Positions 41,501 through 46,701 are shown, counted from the first letter of the stretch. The stretch is 64,000 bases of DNA from the human T2T-CHM13v2.0 reference genome, Homo sapiens (GCF_009914755.1 NC_060928.1); one strand, 5' to 3'. The notes: generated by a model from the sequence alone, not told the origin. Translations and numbers: made by a program.

Positions 41501-43845
41501 AAACAAACACCTTTTTGGCATTTTTTACTGCTACATCTTTAGTGTCTAGGGCAGTGCCTGGCATATGTGTACAAGAAATTTTTGTTGAATTAATACATAC
41601 ATTAAAGTTTTCAGCCAAAGAAATTGAAAAATTGTTGGCAGCATGAAAAAAATGTTTAATTTCTTTTTGTTGTCCCTAAAATACCTCCGTCAACGCTGCT
41701 TCCAATTCTACATAAGGCCACCTTGTAATATTCTTTCCTCCCAGTTGTCTTCCCCCACTTCTCTGCCCTGATACTGAAGAGTAGGAATTGTCACCTGGAC
41801 TCTGAGTCTATATGCAGAGATTAGATACCCCTCTGGGAGTACTAGAAATGCAGTATGTCAGGTGAATTTTAGCGAAGCCTGAATTGCTAACCCTCTGGGT
41901 TCCCCAACCCCTCTAAGCTTTACAACTGCTGAGGATTCAGCCCTAGAGCAGCACAGAAGACACCTCTGTGGGGTGCATGGGACTGAAAAAGGATGGGTAA
42001 GTTATTAGGAGCACCTTGCTAGAAGCACCTATGTCAAGTCTTTTAATAAGTATTTAATTAACTGACTACAGAGTTAAGGGACAACATTGAGGCAGAGAAT
42101 ATGGATTTTTTTTTTTTTTTTGGTGCCACTTACACTTGACTCCTGAATTGGAAGAGCCCAAGGAAAGGAAATAATAAAAATTCTTACACTGTGGATCCTC
42201 GCAGGTTGTAGAGGAATTTTGCCATTGTTGTGTAAGTAGCAGTAAACGGTCACAGGACTAGCAGACATTCAACAAAGCTGTCCTTTATTATCATACTGAC
42301 TTCTGAGACTAAATCCCTCCTAATGCACCACAGCAGGATCTCCAAGGAACAAAGACACTAACATTAAATTTCAGTATCTTTTGGCCCAGATGATGGCCAT
42401 TTAAGCCAAGTTTCCCTTTCCATAACAAATCCTAATCTTGTGTCCCTATTCATTTTAAAATACATATATTTATAAACCCAAAGAGTTTGTATGCAGAGAT
42501 TAGATACCCCTTTGGGAGTACTAGAGGGGTACTTCTAATCTTCTGCTCAAGCTAGTTTGTAGTCAGTAGCTGACATTCCCCCTCGGCATTGTCTGAAAAT
42601 TGACAGCAGGAGCTCCTCAACGAAACCTTTTCACACACAATAGAAAGCCTTGAAGTCGGTGCGTGTCTGTGTCTGCTTTTTTCAAGAGGAACACAGCATG
42701 TTTGTAAACATGTGGCGTGGAAGGAAGATTTAGGATACAAGAGCAAGCCTGTGCCCCACTGATTTCCTGTTTGTTTCTCACATTATGTTACCCCTGGCAA
42801 CTAATGTGGGAAATACACTGAGAGAACAGCACTCCTTTTCCTTATTGTAAGTCCAAATTTGGCAAATAAAAGAAAATAAAACCTTTTAGCTGTTTTCTTA
42901 ATTGTGGAAAGTTTTTATATTCCTGTTTTATTTTTTACTCCAATTCTCTCCTTTTGCTTTCAGAAATAGAGAAAAAGAGATAGAGAAAGAGGAGTGGGAG
43001 AGAAAGAGTTTGCTTCAGTGATTTGATCTGCTAAAACCATATGGCACTGAGAACTAGAAGAGAAACTATTGAATAAAAATTATGCAATACTTATAGACAC
43101 AATAAATAAGTTTCACTTTCATATCACAAAATAAATAGCACACTTGCATAGATTAATGAATGTATCCTAGGTGATGTTTATTTACCATATAAACAGAAAA
43201 AAAATCACGTGAATTTGTTCATTCATTCATTCATTCATTCAGCATTTGCTTCACAGGAAGCACTATGTTGGACATGTGCATTCCTCTTTTATCCCCTTTG
43301 CAGTAGAGTTTAACCAACATGGAAACAGAACATTGGAAAGTGAGGATACTTGCCCTTGGCCACAGTCTGGTAGATTCAGGACCTGGTCTGTTTGATTCCT
43401 AAGCTGGTGGCATCCCTACACTATTATGTCCCTCCACATTGATGATCCTAGTGTCTGAGGTAGAGCAGAGATGAAAGGACGTGGGTTTTGAGAGGAATAA
43501 ACCAAAATAAGAAAATTATCACTGAGAAAATTGAGCAATTAGTACTTACCTGTCTTGTTCACTGTCCTTTAATGAGCAACAAGCCCCCCCAAAAAAGTCA
43601 GAGAATGAGGCTAATGATGACCTTTTAGACTCTAGAACATATATTAGTGTAAAATGAAAAGGATATTTAGAAAGAAATAGTAATCTGATTCATTTTTGTG
43701 TTTATATTTACATCACACAAAATAATGAGCAAAACCCTTTGGGAGTAGTAATTTTCAGACTACTATATTATTAAACATTTTATATTTTCCATCTCATGGA
43801 AGACATTATTTACTAAATGGCAAGCAAAAAGATTTTTATCTATAT

Positions 43846-44854
43846 TGTTGCGGGAAGTCAGGGACCCCAAAAGGAGGGACCGGCTGGAGCTGCAGCAGAA
43901 GAACATAAATTCTGAATATTTCATGGACATTTATCACTTCCCTAATAATACTCTTATAATTTCTTACGCCTGTCTTACTTTAATCTCTTAATCCTTTTAT
44001 CTTCATAAGCTGAGGATGTACGTCACCTCAGGACCCTGGGATGATTGCATTAACTGTACAAATTGATTGTAAAACATGTGTGTTTGAACAATATGAAATC
44101 AGTGCACCTTGAAAATGAAGAGAATGACAGCAATTTTAGGGAATAAGGGAAGACAACCATAAAGTCTGAGTGCCTGCAGGGTCGGGCAAAAAGAGCCATA
44201 TTTTTCTTCTTGCAGAGAGCCTATAAATGGATGCACAAGTAGGAGAGATATCGCTAAATTCTTTTCCTAGCAAGGAATATAATATTAAGACCTTAGGGAA
44301 AGAATTGCATTCCTCAGGGGAGGTCTATAAATGGCCGCTCTGGGAGTGTCTGTCCTATGTAGTTGAGATAAGGACTGAGATATGCCCTGGTCTCCTGCAG
44401 TACCCTCAGGCTTACTAGGGTGGGGAAAAGACCCCGTCCTTATAAATTTGAGGTCAGACCCGTTCTCTGCTCTCGAACCCTGCTTTCTGTTAAGATGTTT
44501 ATCAAGACAATACGTGCACAGCTGAACATAGACCCTTATCAGGAGTTTCTGATTTTGCCCTGGTCCTGTTTCCTCAGAAGCATGTGATCTTTGTTCTCCT
44601 TTTTGCCCTTTGAAGCATGCGATCTTTGGGACCTACTCCCTGTTCTTGCACTCCCTCCCCTTTTGAAATCCTTAATAAAAACTTGCTGGTTTTGCCACTC
44701 AGGTGGGCATCACAGACCTACCGATATGTGATGTCACCCCCAGCAGCCCAGCTGTAAAATTCCTCTCTTTGTACTCTTTCTCTTTATTTCTCAGATCTGC
44801 CAACACTTAGGGAAAATAGAAAGAACCTACGTTGAAATATTGGGGGTGGGTTCC
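43846..44854 (+). mobile_element. MER11 LTR (HERV-K11/HML-8), nearly complete but lacking the last few U5 bases
   Basis: Starts tgttgcgggaagtcagggacccc. TATA-like tataaa at ~44441, AATAAA at 44674. Ends aagaacctacgttgaaatattgggggtgggttcc without the expected terminal bases. Confidence 0.9.
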
Positions 44855-44870
44855 ACTAGCCCATGCAGCA

Positions 44871-45284
44871 CAGCCTCCACAGTAGCTGGGATTACAGGTG
44901 CCTGCCACCACGCCCTGCTAATTTTTTTGTATTTTTAGTAGAGATGGGGTTTCACCATGTTGGCCAGGCTGGTCTCGAACTCCAGACCTCAGGGGATCTG
45001 CCTGCCTCGGCCTCCCAAAGTGCTGGGATTACAGGTGTGAGCCACCATACCTGGTCAACGTGGTGAAACCCCTTCTCTACTAAAAATACAAAAAAATTAG
45101 CTGGGCGTGGTGGCAGGTGCCTGTAATCCCAGCTACTCGGGAGGCTGAGATGAAGTCTGCTCTTGTCCCCCAGGCCAAAGTGCAATCTCGGCTCACTGCA
45201 ACCTTAGCCTCCCAGGTTCAAGCGATTCTCCTGCCTCAGCCTCCCAAGTAGCTGGGACTACAGGCATGTAGTCCGGCTAATTTT
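44871..45284. mobile_element. Three fused Alu fragments: (-) 44871-45056, (+) 45050-45149, (-) 45147-45284
   Basis: Strand switches occur at shared microhomologies cctggtc and gaga. No piece has its own poly(A) or TSD. Confidence 0.9.
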
Positions 45285-45317
45285 ATATATATATATATAT
45301 AATTAGTTTTTGAAACT

Positions 45318-46414
45318 ACTGGGGCAGGCGGGCTTTATTCTGGGTGCTGGAGAGCTGTGGGCCCCACTCCTCCCGTAGAATGCCACCAGGGTGAGGGGCT
45401 GGGCCTCGGCAGGGGTGAGTGCTCAGAGCAGGAAGGGGATGATGGGCATGCGCAGGGGCGGGTAGTCCCAGAACTCCTTTAGGGAGCTGTGGTGCTTGCC
45501 CTTGGCCTAGATCGTCATCTGGGTAAAGCCCACCAGGGAGAACAGGGCCACTGGGAGACACTGTGTCATGATGGCAAAACTGATCCAGGACCCCATCTGG
45601 TAGGTGTAGTTGGGGCAGGACACCAGCAGGAAAAGCCACGTGAAAGGGTTCTTGGTGAGGTATGGGATCTTCTGGGTGTTGGACTCAGCGGGCCGCCGGT
45701 CCCACAGGGCCATGTGGATGGAGAAGTTGCCAAGCACAGGCAGATCACAAAGATGGCGAGTGCCAGTTTCACCTGCTGAGCTCTGTAAGTAGGGGGTGTG
45801 TAGAGAGGGTGGTTGATGTAATAGGCCATCCACCCAGTGAAGCCCCAGGAGTAGGTGCAGTTCTTGAAGATGTTGCGCAAGGCATGGTACCATGGGAGAA
45901 GTGGTGCATGAACAACGTCTCCAGCAGGTGCTTGACGTAGTGCAATGAGTGACAGATGCAGGTGAGGTGCACCACCATGTGCCGACTGGATGTGAAGTCA
46001 TATTTGTTGCCATAGATGAAGGGCACTCAGAAGTAGAAGAGCAGGTAGATGAAAAGAGGCCCCCCGTACTCTGTTAGGAAGACCGTCACCCAGCTGATCT
46101 GGGCCCCCACATCCTGGAAGTAGAGTGTGGCCATGGCGCCCACGGGCATCTTCTGCAGAACATCTTCATCATTCAGGGACTTGCCCTTGGGGTCCAGGCG
46201 GAGGGACTGGTGGGCAGGGTACCACTGCAGAGGGGTCTTGGTGAAGAGGTTCTTGATCTCTGCAGTGGTGGTGTGGGGCTCCACCTTGTCCAGGAAACAC
46301 AGCTTCTCCCCTGTCTTTGCGTGCAGAATCTCCACCTCTTAGTGCTTCATGGCTGTCTCCCACGGCGGCTACTGCTCCATGGCTGCTGCTGCCTAACTGC
46401 GCGGCACAGCACAG
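45318..46414 (-). pseudogene. TECR: Processed pseudogene of trans-2,3-enoyl-CoA reductase TECR; former CDS 46350..45423 plus UTRs
   Basis: Intronless: MKH*EVEILHAKTGEKLCFLDKVEPH...LFIYLLFYF*VPFIYG...NIFKNCTYSWGF...LVSCPNYTY...MPIIPFLL*. Stops at 46339-41, 46027-29 and 45507-09, plus frameshifts. AATAAA at 45334-45339 (-). The symbol names the parent gene. Confidence 0.96.
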
Positions 46415-46450
46415 GGTCCCGCCGTTCGGGGTCCCTGACTTCCCGCAACA
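46415..46450 (-). mobile_element. Inverted 36-bp copy of the MER11 LTR 5' (U3) terminus
   Basis: Reverse complement tgttgcgggaagtcagggaccccgaacggcgggacc matches 43846-43881 at 33/36 positions. Confidence 0.95.
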
Positions 46451-46701
46451 CTATATACCAAGTGGCATTATGTGATCTTCTTCATAGAGGTCCCAAAACA
46501 TATTGCCTTGTATATTTGGCCTTTTGATAGTTTACTTGTACTTTCTTAATTTTTTTTTTGCCGTCTCAGGATTAACTTTATACTCAGAAAAATGCTCAAA
46601 ATTTCTCACTATTGTAGACAAACATTTAAACATTTTATTATTTAATTGACCATTTACTCCTTAACCTCAGCTGTAGATAATGCCTTTGAAAACACTTAAA
46701 T

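What the first reader, a model, noticed from the sequence alone, without database searches (positions are those of the whole stretch)
43840..46456. Host TECR cDNA apparently integrated by a HERV-K-type integrase: LTR-Alu-TECR cassette with inverted LTR ends and a 6-bp TSD
Seen in sequence: the 2605-bp block 43846-46450 starts with a near-complete MER11 LTR and ends with the reverse complement of the first 36 nt of the same LTR (33/36 identical). It therefore has TG...CA ends, both derived from U3, forming terminal inverted repeats. CTATAT flanks it exactly on both sides (43840-45 and 46451-56). Inside is a spliced, full-length TECR copy with no clear poly(A) tail and no long TSD of its own. 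Established knowledge: betaretrovirus-like HERV-K integrases join CA-3' ends and make 6-bp TSDs, whereas L1-made pseudogenes have poly(A) and 7-20 bp TSDs, like the L1PA at 46827 in this window. Inference: TECR mRNA was co-packaged and copied by template switching in an HML-8 particle, and integrase inserted the chimera using two U3 att ends. This would be a non-L1 route to gene retrocopies in primates.
Basis: partly seen in the sequence, partly recalled or inferred. Interest (0 to 1): 0.92.

Follow-up and report, generated by a model that had tools for sequence, protein, structure and literature searches.

The report
Retroviral LTR–Alu–TECR chimera, integrase-inserted
A 2.6-kb insertion on human chromosome 4 joins one endogenous-retrovirus LTR, Alu scraps and a complete spliced copy of the TECR gene, and its ends and 6-bp flanking duplication look made by a retroviral integrase rather than by L1, a rare route to gene retrocopies in primates.

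Summary
Block 43846-46450 starts with a MER11/HERV-K(HML8)-type LTR that lacks its last 4 nt. It ends with the reverse complement of that LTR's first 36 nt (33/36). CTATAT flanks it exactly on both sides; chance for such a match is about 5 in 10,000. Normal copies of this LTR family end ...ATA, not ...CAACA, and carry 6-bp duplications: exact in 15 of 29 copies examined, 5/6 in 5 more.

Inside lie a 13-nt filler, three Alu fragments without tails or duplications, an A/T-rich stretch, and a full-length, 13-exon, spliced TECR copy. The middle Alu fragment is an inverted copy of the first. TECR is fused to LTR nt 36 at a 6/7 microhomology.

All three RNA-derived pieces are antisense to the LTR plus strand. 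Two stop where homology to the source sequence runs out at its 5' end. Non-CpG divergence is similar for the LTR (0.042) and TECR (0.047).

Best reading: an aborted plus-strand strong-stop DNA primed cDNA synthesis on Alu RNA and TECR mRNA, and integrase inserted the product through two U3 ends.

The decisive ortholog test could not be run. LTR-mediated retrocopies are already known in humans (FAM8A1), so this is a new variant, not a new route.

The parts
43840..43845 (.). left copy of the 6-bp target-site duplication CTATAT
43846..44857 (+). MER11/HERV-K(HML8)-type LTR (U3-R-U5). It starts at family nt 1 (TGTTGC...) and lacks the family's last 4 nt (...GATA).
   Evidence: tied to HML8 through the 1p13.3 provirus
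43846..43881 (+). left arm of the terminal inverted repeat (LTR nt 1-36)
   Evidence: I2
44858..44870 (.). 13-nt filler of unknown origin between the LTR and the first Alu piece
   Evidence: only chance-level 8-9-mers found elsewhere
44871..45056 (-). Alu fragment P1, antisense on the + strand. It runs from about Alu position 182 to where alignment to full-length Alus ends at their 5' end. No tail, no duplication.
45057..45149 (+). Alu fragment P2, sense. It is the reverse complement of 44871-44961 (84 of 92 identical). It starts next to a 6/7 complementary pair of 7-mers (44962-68 / 45050-56).
   Evidence: (I1)
45147..45290 (-). Alu fragment P3, antisense. It runs from the 3' end of the Alu body (no A tail) to the A-rich middle linker, and overlaps P2 by GAG.
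45284..45317 (.). (TA)n, then ATTAG, T5 and GAAACT. This A/T-rich junction lies between Alu P3 and the TECR 3' end. There is no real poly(A)/poly(T).
45318..46420 (-). TECR retrocopy (TECRP2): 13 exons, spliced, running from the 5'-most parental homology to the cleavage region, with in-frame stops
46415..46450 (-). right arm: LTR nt 1-36 in inverted orientation. It overlaps the TECR 5' end in GGGACC (6/7 microhomology with parental GGGAGCC).
46451..46456 (.). right copy of the 6-bp target-site duplication CTATAT

Best explanation
The block is one piece of DNA that was put together during reverse transcription in a HERV-K(HML8) particle and inserted by that virus's integrase. Shown: its two termini are both the U3 start of the LTR, in inverted orientation, and are flanked by the 6-bp duplication typical of this family. 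Shown: on the strand that carries the LTR in plus sense, all three RNA-derived pieces (Alu P1, Alu P3, TECR) are cDNA-sense. Inferred: a plus-strand strong-stop DNA stopped 4 nt short of the U5 end, so it had no primer-binding-site copy and could not make the second jump. Its 3' end, after 13 unexplained nt, was extended on an Alu RNA to the RNA's 5' end. It then snapped back on itself at a 7-nt complementarity and copied 91 nt of its own Alu part. Next it switched to the 3' end of an Alu body, moved at the A-rich linker to the 3' end of TECR mRNA, and copied that to the 5' end. Finally it paired, at GGGA(G/C)CC, with a second nascent plus strand only 36 nt long. Mutual extension gave a blunt duplex with a U3 end on both sides, and integrase processed and joined both ends in concert.
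For: Termini and duplication. The family's normal right end is ...C(G/A)ATA. Family copies carry 6-bp duplications: 15 of 29 copies examined were exact, 5 matched 5/6, 8 matched 4/6 or less, and 1 had no terminus found. So the right end here is not a U5 end. The LTR family flanks a provirus with Gag_p10, p24, dUTPase+protease and HERV-K env. In that provirus a polypurine run abuts LTR nt 1 and a Lys-type primer-binding site follows U5. That provirus matches the published HML8 1p13.3/MER11A locus in length (7,030 bp), strand and pro ORF. All 3 RNA-derived pieces are antisense to the LTR plus strand. P1 stops where alignment to full-length Alus ends at their 5' end, and TECR stops at its 5'-most parental homology. 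P2 is the inverted copy of P1 (84/92, against 71-87% to four other Alus). Both share a linker A-run 2 nt longer than in the four other window Alus. P2 begins exactly beside the 7-nt self-complementarity. None of the Alu pieces or TECR has a tail or a duplication of its own. Junctions show microhomology (6/7 at U3/TECR, GAG at P2/P3) or short fillers. Tan et al. report the same features for LTR-mediated retrocopies: median 6-bp microsimilarity and 2-26 bp de novo inserts. Ages agree. The LTR star-branch is 0.042 at non-CpG sites and 0.049 at all sites. TECR versus parent is 0.047 at non-CpG sites, 45 of 981. Retroviral particles carry cellular RNA, and 7SL is enriched in them (PMC5086612, passage). 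Betaretroviral integrase makes 6-bp duplications, and MMTV integrase was tested in concerted-integration assays for which only U5-end oligonucleotides are listed (PMC3790719, passages).
Against: No orthologous or paralogous empty site could be examined; both flanks are unique in this genome. Simultaneous arrival of all parts is therefore not shown. The P3 / T-run / antisense-TECR arrangement is also what L1 target-primed reverse transcription into the T-rich antisense linker of an Alu would give. The (TA)n stretch could be a decayed poly(A). Two junctions carry unexplained fillers of 13 nt and about 10 nt. The snap-back copy stops at the start of the Alu part and not further on, which the model does not predict exactly. 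There is no APOBEC-type G>A excess in TECR: 7 G>A against 10 C>T outside CpG. The age comparison has wide errors and used LTR copies chosen for similarity to the window copy. The TECR transcription start was not checked independently.
Confidence: 0.6

Rival explanations
1. Two steps. First, an aberrant two-U3-ended LTR element, with or without the Alu pieces, was integrated by integrase. Later, L1 inserted the TECR cDNA into the T-rich antisense linker of Alu P3. That insertion deleted target DNA up to nt 36 of the inverted arm and joined the 5' end by microhomology.
For: The + strand reads Alu linker T-run, A/T-rich stretch, then antisense TECR, which is the L1 priming geometry. Microhomology at 5' junctions and target deletions are known for L1 (recalled, not checked here). 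The retrocopy is full length like many L1 products. The ages cannot separate events a few million years apart.
Against: TECR has no duplication of its own. No A-run longer than 5 is present, and 6 non-A bases (AGTTTC) sit directly after the cleavage region. This rival needs an extra rare event, an L1 insertion with deletion, inside an element of about 2 kb that is itself rare. It still needs template switching or rearrangement to explain the tail-less, permuted Alu pieces.
Confidence: 0.22
2. Integrase joined the U3 ends of two separate DNA molecules, a full LTR-length fragment and a short 36-bp plus-strand start, to the two sides of the target. Host end joining then closed the gap and captured free Alu and TECR cDNAs in the nucleus.
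For: Fillers and short microhomologies at the junctions are typical of end joining. Concerted integration assays work with short separate oligonucleotide ends (PMC3790719).
Against: All 3 RNA-derived pieces have the same polarity relative to the LTR plus strand; random capture would give this 1 time in 8. The P1/P2 hairpin geometry, with priming at a terminal 7-mer, fits self-primed synthesis better than ligation.
Confidence: 0.1
3. No unusual integration occurred. Either an ordinary solo LTR, or two independent MER11 insertions in opposite orientation, was later reshaped by L1 insertions, deletions and Alu-Alu rearrangement, and the second CTATAT is a coincidence or a by-product.
For: CTATAT is AT-rich and nearly palindromic. 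Inverted Alus are unstable. The region also holds a (TA)n run.
Against: The inverted arm ends exactly at LTR nt 1 and abuts exactly the same 6-mer that precedes the left end; the chance of that match is about 5e-4. An inverted copy of the left junction would read ...CAACA + ATATAG + left flank, which is not what is seen. The left LTR is colinear with family copies over nt 1-1009, so no inversion breakpoint lies within it. The family's own U5 terminus is missing.
Confidence: 0.06

Closest known systems
LTR-mediated retroposition (Tan et al. 2016, PMC5131818). Its human cases are FAM8A1 with HERVK14 (two loci) and one locus with MER4.
   Same: An intronless host mRNA copy is fused to LTR-retroelement sequence at microsimilarities or short de novo inserts, without L1 hallmarks. 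The model is template switching on co-packaged RNA inside the particle. One mouse case also carries an Alu-like SINE and several mRNAs.
   Different: Their model describes an internal retrocopy flanked by a discontinuous LTR retrotransposon with both 5' and 3' LTRs. Here there is one LTR plus only 36 nt of inverted U3. The cargo is antisense to the LTR, no internal viral sequence is left, and both integration ends are U3. TECR is absent from their Supplemental Table 8 and from the rest of their supplemental tables file. Their PDF data sets could not be read.
L1-made processed pseudogenes
   Same: A full-length, spliced, non-functional cDNA copy of a housekeeping gene. It is catalogued as retrocopy chr4:125383913-125385015 (hg19) in Navarro and Galante 2015 (supplement) and as TECRP2 in RefSeq.
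   Different: There is no poly(A) tail and no 7-20 bp duplication around TECR. A second TECR retrocopy on chromosome 4 (L012) shows the ordinary form: a 5' truncation and a tail of 24 A.
Canonical MER11 / HERV-K(HML8) solo LTR
   Same: The same LTR sequence and the same 6-bp duplication length. Probably listed as solitary LTR chr4:124461341-124462294 (hg38) in Supplementary Table 1 of PMC10194239. I made that match by coordinate offset only, not by liftover.
   Different: The right terminus is an inverted U3 start, not the family's U5 end. About 1.6 kb of non-viral sequence lies inside the duplication.
Retroviral transduction of host genes, and Ty1/retrovirus 'cDNA genes' (recalled; Tan et al. 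cite Swain and Coffin 1992, Derr 1991, Schacherer 2004)
   Same: Host RNA is copied by a retroelement reverse transcriptase through non-homologous template switches.
   Different: Transduced genes lie in sense orientation between two direct LTRs and stay part of a replicating genome. This product is a dead end.

Membership tests
LTR-retroelement-mediated retrocopy | intronless copy of a host mRNA | tested here: met
   13 of 13 parental exons are contiguous
LTR-retroelement-mediated retrocopy | LTR-element sequence on both sides of the retrocopy, not a continuous element interrupted by an insertion | tested here: met
   A full LTR lies on the left and an inverted LTR nt 1-36 on the right. The form is unusual: inverted, and 36 nt only.
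LTR-retroelement-mediated retrocopy | microsimilarity or short de novo sequence at the fusion points | tested here: met
   6/7 at U3/TECR; GAG at P2/P3; 13-nt and about 10-nt fillers
LTR-retroelement-mediated retrocopy | element-type target-site duplication around the whole chimera | tested here: met
   CTATAT on both sides. The family makes 6-bp duplications: 15 exact and 5 at 5/6 among 29 copies examined.
LTR-retroelement-mediated retrocopy | all parts appear together in phylogeny, with a clean empty site in outgroups | not testable with these tools
   No primate genomes are held, and the flanks are unique in this genome
L1-mediated processed pseudogene | poly(A) tail at the 3' end | tested here: not met
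   The longest A-run is 5, preceded by AGTTTC. The (TA)n stretch could be a decayed tail.
L1-mediated processed pseudogene | 7-20 bp duplication flanking the retrocopy | tested here: not met
   No shared k-mer of 7 or more. The only 6-mer shared is TATATA, from the microsatellite.
L1-mediated processed pseudogene | insertion at a T-rich endonuclease-type site | tested here: inconclusive
   The TECR 3' end abuts the T-rich antisense linker of Alu P3
Canonical HERV-K(HML8)/MER11 LTR insertion | left end is the U3 start and right end is the U5 terminus (...ATA in this family) | tested here: not met
   The right end is ...GCAACA, the inverted U3 start. The LTR's own U5 terminus is missing.
Canonical HERV-K(HML8)/MER11 LTR insertion | LTR sequence of the family that flanks betaretrovirus-like proviruses | tested here: met
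   86-91% identity to family copies. Provirus L025 has Gag_p10, dUTPase-protease and HERV-K env, and matches the published 1p13.3 MER11A locus.

The most novel reading that the evidence does not exclude
This is a germline fossil of a retroviral by-product not described in the papers I could search. An incomplete plus-strand strong-stop DNA acted as primer for cDNA synthesis on packaged Alu RNA and a host mRNA. The product was closed against a second nascent plus strand and was inserted by concerted integration of two U3 ends. If so, primate genomes may hide a class of 'one LTR plus short inverted terminus' retrocopies. Both L1-hallmark screens and LTR-flank screens would miss them, because the 36-nt arm is too short to be annotated.
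Probability: 0.45. Interest if true: 0.75.

Novelty: new variant of a known kind. Interest (0 to 1): 0.6.

Why it matters
The block would show that HERV-K(HML8) particles reverse-transcribed host mRNA and Alu RNA in the primate germline some 20-25 million years ago. It would show that an integrase can use two U3 ends in vivo. It would also record, step by step, how reverse transcription can go astray: an aborted strong-stop DNA, run-off at RNA 5' ends, snap-back, and microhomology jumps. In practice it suggests a simple screen: short inverted LTR termini flanked by family-length duplications. That screen could reveal more non-L1 retrocopies. The locus is currently catalogued only as an ordinary pseudogene plus, probably, a solitary LTR.

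Tried and rejected
- **Paralogous empty site.** Both flanks (43440-43845 and 46451-46820) match only themselves in the genome, so there was no test.
- **Genome-wide search for other convergent pairs of LTR starts.** The start motif occurs 1,835 times (902 forward, 933 reverse; control 0), but only 100 places are listed. The scan was not done.
- **LTR end plus a recalled Lys-type primer-site motif as a pattern.** 0 hits. The primer site was instead read in provirus L025.
- **Origin of the 13-nt filler.** Only 8-9-mers at chance level were found in the provirus, the block, or TECR. The shared CAGCACAG with the TECR 5' UTR was rejected, since about 2 such matches are expected.
- **APOBEC-type editing in TECR.** 7 G>A against 10 C>T outside CpG, so no signal.
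- **Using the second TECR retrocopy as an outgroup.** It is 99-100% identical to the parent, so it is uninformative.
- **Primate presence of the TECR retrocopy.** The supplement of PMC4558860 has 6 occurrences of TECR, but only the two chr4 rows could be displayed, and phrase searches for the others found nothing.
- **Templated-insertion or inverted-duplication origin of the right arm.** Rejected, because the sequence after the arm is the direct CTATAT plus the right flank, not the inverted left flank.
- **Searches for prior description.** TECRP2 gave 3 papers, all misspellings of TECPR2. MER11 + processed pseudogene gave 14 papers; from the listing none describes this, and I opened only PMC10194239. 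FAM8A1 + endogenous retrovirus + transduction gave 2 papers. The retrocopy / HERV-K / template switch / chimeric / integrase search gave 16 papers. 'Two U3' + integrase + concerted integration gave 158 papers, and none of the 12 listed contains the phrase 'two U3'.
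Full report
**What is there.**
- The block 43846-46450 begins TGTTGCGGGAAGTCAGGGACCCC... 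and ends ...GGGGTCCCTGACTTCCCGCAACA.
- The two 36-nt arms are reverse complements of each other at 33 of 36 positions.
- CTATAT sits immediately outside both ends (43840-45 and 46451-56).
- In this window, identical 6-mers at two given positions occur at 37 of 61,383 (this spacing) and 684 of 1,523,046 (200 other spacings). That is about 5 in 10,000.

**The LTR and its family.**
- Positions 43846-44857 match many genomic copies of one LTR family at 86-91% over query positions 1-1009/1012 (50 matches listed, 40 of 2,245 candidates scored).
- A 22-base degenerate motif of the LTR start occurs 1,835 times in the genome, and its control occurs 0 times.
- I examined 29 family copies: 9 and 20 taken in list order. 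A terminus ...C(G/A)ATA was found in 28 of them.
- The 6 bases on either side were identical in 15 copies, matched 5/6 in 5, and matched 4/6 or less in 8.
- Three of those 8 (L030, L034, L039) are followed by sequence beginning TCT(G/A)G like the start of the provirus interior; for L034 the match to the primer-site region of L025 continues.
- So the family makes 6-bp duplications. Its normal right end is unlike the right end seen here.
- The window LTR reads ...GGGTTCCACT and then departs from the family (...GGGTTCCCC(C/T)GATA). It lacks the last 4 nt, and no primer-binding site follows.
- Two same-strand LTR starts 6 kb apart on chromosome 1 bound a 7,030-bp provirus (L025). In it, a polypurine run abuts LTR nt 1, and a Lys-type primer site follows U5 after two bases. 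Its open frames hit Gag_p10, Gag_p24, dUTPase plus retroviral protease, and HERV-K_env_2.
- Its length, strand, chromosome band and 335-aa pro frame match the HML8 locus 1p13.3 (MER11A) of PMC10194239 (Table 1 and Table 3 passages).
- The name MER11/HML8 is therefore supported. I did not determine the subfamily of the window copy.

**The TECR part.**
- On the minus strand, 46420 to 45318 aligns to all 13 exons of the parental gene on chromosome 19, joined exactly as in a spliced mRNA.
- There are 86 differences in 1,101 aligned bases, including in-frame stops. Thirty of the differences are CpG decays.
- The copy ends at ...CCCCAGT, the parental cleavage region. It is followed by AGTTTC, five A, CTAATTA, a (TA) run and AAAATTAGCC, which is the middle linker of an Alu.
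- No direct repeat of 7 nt or more flanks it.
- At the 5' end the parent reads gtaGGGAGCCTGTG, the LTR reads GGAGGGACCGGCT, and the copy reads GGCGGGACCCTGTG. The junction lies in a 6-of-7 microhomology.

**The Alu part.** Alignment with four other Alus of the window resolves three pieces.
- P1 (44871-45056) is antisense. It runs from about Alu position 182 to where alignment to full-length Alus ends at their 5' end.
- P2 (45057-45149) is sense and covers about positions 97-185.
- P3 (45147-45290) is antisense. It runs from the very end of the Alu body, without an A tail, to the middle linker.
- None has a tail or a duplication, and their order is not that of nested insertions.
- P2 is the reverse complement of the left 91 nt of P1. 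They are identical at 84 of 92 positions, against 71-87% for either piece versus the four other Alus, and they share a linker A-run 2 nt longer than in those four Alus.
- P2 begins exactly where the last 7 nt of P1 (45050-56) can pair with an internal 7-mer of P1 (44962-68). This is why the repeat finder extends the hairpin to 103-nt arms around an 81-nt loop (I1).

**Reading.** An inverted LTR start that ends exactly at nt 1 and abuts an exact copy of the 6-mer on the other side requires a process that recognises LTR ends.
- Random breakage, inversion, or templated repair synthesis would not stop at nt 1. It would also carry the inverted left flank, which is not seen.
- Two independent MER11 insertions sharing a 6-mer by chance are far less likely.
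- I therefore take integrase-mediated insertion of a DNA with U3 at both ends as well supported (about 0.9).

How that DNA arose is inferred from polarity.
- On the strand that carries U3-R-U5 in plus sense, all three RNA-derived pieces are cDNA-sense. Two stop where homology to the source sequence ends at its 5' end. The only sense piece is a self-copy.
- The only plus-sense U3-R-U5 DNA with a free 3' end in a retroviral replication complex is plus-strand strong-stop DNA (established knowledge of reverse transcription). Here it stops 4 nt short of the U5 end, so it lacks the primer-site copy needed for the second jump.
- Extension of that 3' end on Alu RNA, snap-back, a second Alu RNA and then TECR mRNA gives the observed order. 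The last step is pairing at GGGA(G/C)CC with a 36-nt nascent plus strand whose 5' end is fixed by the polypurine tract. This produces the junctions and both termini.
- These features (microsimilarity, short de novo inserts, absence of L1 hallmarks) are those reported for LTR-mediated retrocopies (PMC5131818, passages and section 6).

**Dating.** I built no consensus.
- From pairwise distances among the window LTR and the 9 best-matching copies, a star-tree estimate gives the window copy a branch of 0.049 (all sites) or 0.042 (non-CpG). The copies were chosen for similarity, so this may be low.
- TECR versus the present parent gives 0.082 (all sites) or 0.047 (non-CpG, 45 of 981). That includes the parent's own changes.
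- At the 0.2% per million years used in PMC10194239, both fall near 21-24 million years. This lies within the 43-17 million-year window that paper gives for HML8.
- The ages agree, but they cannot separate events a few million years apart.

**What speaks against, and rivals.**
- The arrangement Alu linker T-run / A/T-rich stretch / antisense TECR is also what L1 priming in an Alu linker would give, and (TA)n could be a decayed tail. A later L1 insertion with target deletion into an already aberrant element is a real alternative (0.22).
- Against that rival: the six non-A bases directly after the cleavage region, the missing duplication, and the need for one more rare event inside a rare 2-kb element.
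- Concerted integration of ends from two molecules, followed by nuclear end joining with cDNA capture, is a second variant (0.10).
- An origin without any unusual integration is unlikely (0.06).
- No APOBEC-type bias was found.
- No empty site could be examined.
- No genome-wide scan for sister cases was possible.

**Known or new.**
- The retrocopy is catalogued: RefSeq TECRP2, and chr4:125383913-125385015 (hg19) in the supplement of PMC4558860.
- The LTR is probably the solitary LTR chr4:124461341-124462294 (hg38) in Supplementary Table 1 of PMC10194239. I matched it only by a coordinate offset of about 3.3 Mb, which another distal 4q LTR shares.
- I found no paper that links the two or describes the inverted terminus.
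- LTR-mediated retrocopies in humans are known: three loci in Supplemental Table 8 of PMC5131818, none of them TECR. Its PDF data sets could not be read.
- This is therefore a new variant of a known kind. It has one LTR, a 36-nt inverted U3 terminus, antisense cargo, and an internal record of strong-stop-primed synthesis.

**Verdict.** Integrase insertion through two U3 ends is strongly supported. Co-integration of TECR by template switching is favoured (0.6). Interest is 0.6.

Noticed in passing
L012 (G000:C4:90278953-90279497 and upstream, minus strand): A second TECR retrocopy, 99-100% identical to the parent. It covers exons 8-13 plus 77 nt of the 3' end of intron 7, followed by 24 A and an A-rich run. 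It is a very young, ordinary L1-type copy from a partly unspliced or internally started transcript. It is listed as chr4:87870690-87871257 (hg19) in the supplement of PMC4558860.
   Followed up: partly
L002-L010, L026-L045 (family LTR copies): The family's right terminus reads ...C(G/A)ATA directly before the duplication, so the proviral end is TA rather than the canonical CA. The U3 end gives a canonical ...CAACA on the other strand.
   Followed up: partly
window 46698-46789: A 46-bp unit is tandemly duplicated (98% identical), about 250 bp to the right of the insertion.
   Followed up: no
window 43846-43881 versus 46415-46450 and 46340-46420: The right arm keeps CpGs at the two arm positions where the left arm has lost them, and the adjoining TECR 5' UTR also keeps many CpGs. 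This suggests locally different methylation or decay across the block.
   Followed up: no
L030 and L039 (G000:C1:13073960-13075196 and C1:59765176-59766410): In these two copies the LTR end is followed by the same sequence (TCTGGCTGAATTTCCC...), which repeats the LTR's own terminal motif. This may be a duplicated U5 end or a variant leader.
   Followed up: no
G000:C1:160582647, 160590046, 160597431: Three same-strand LTR starts spaced about 7.4 kb apart, which looks like a tandem proviral array. PMC10194239 lists a 17-kb HML8 locus at 1q23.3, on the minus strand in hg38 (the three starts here are on the plus strand of T2T).
   Followed up: no
I did not analyse it.
   Followed up: no
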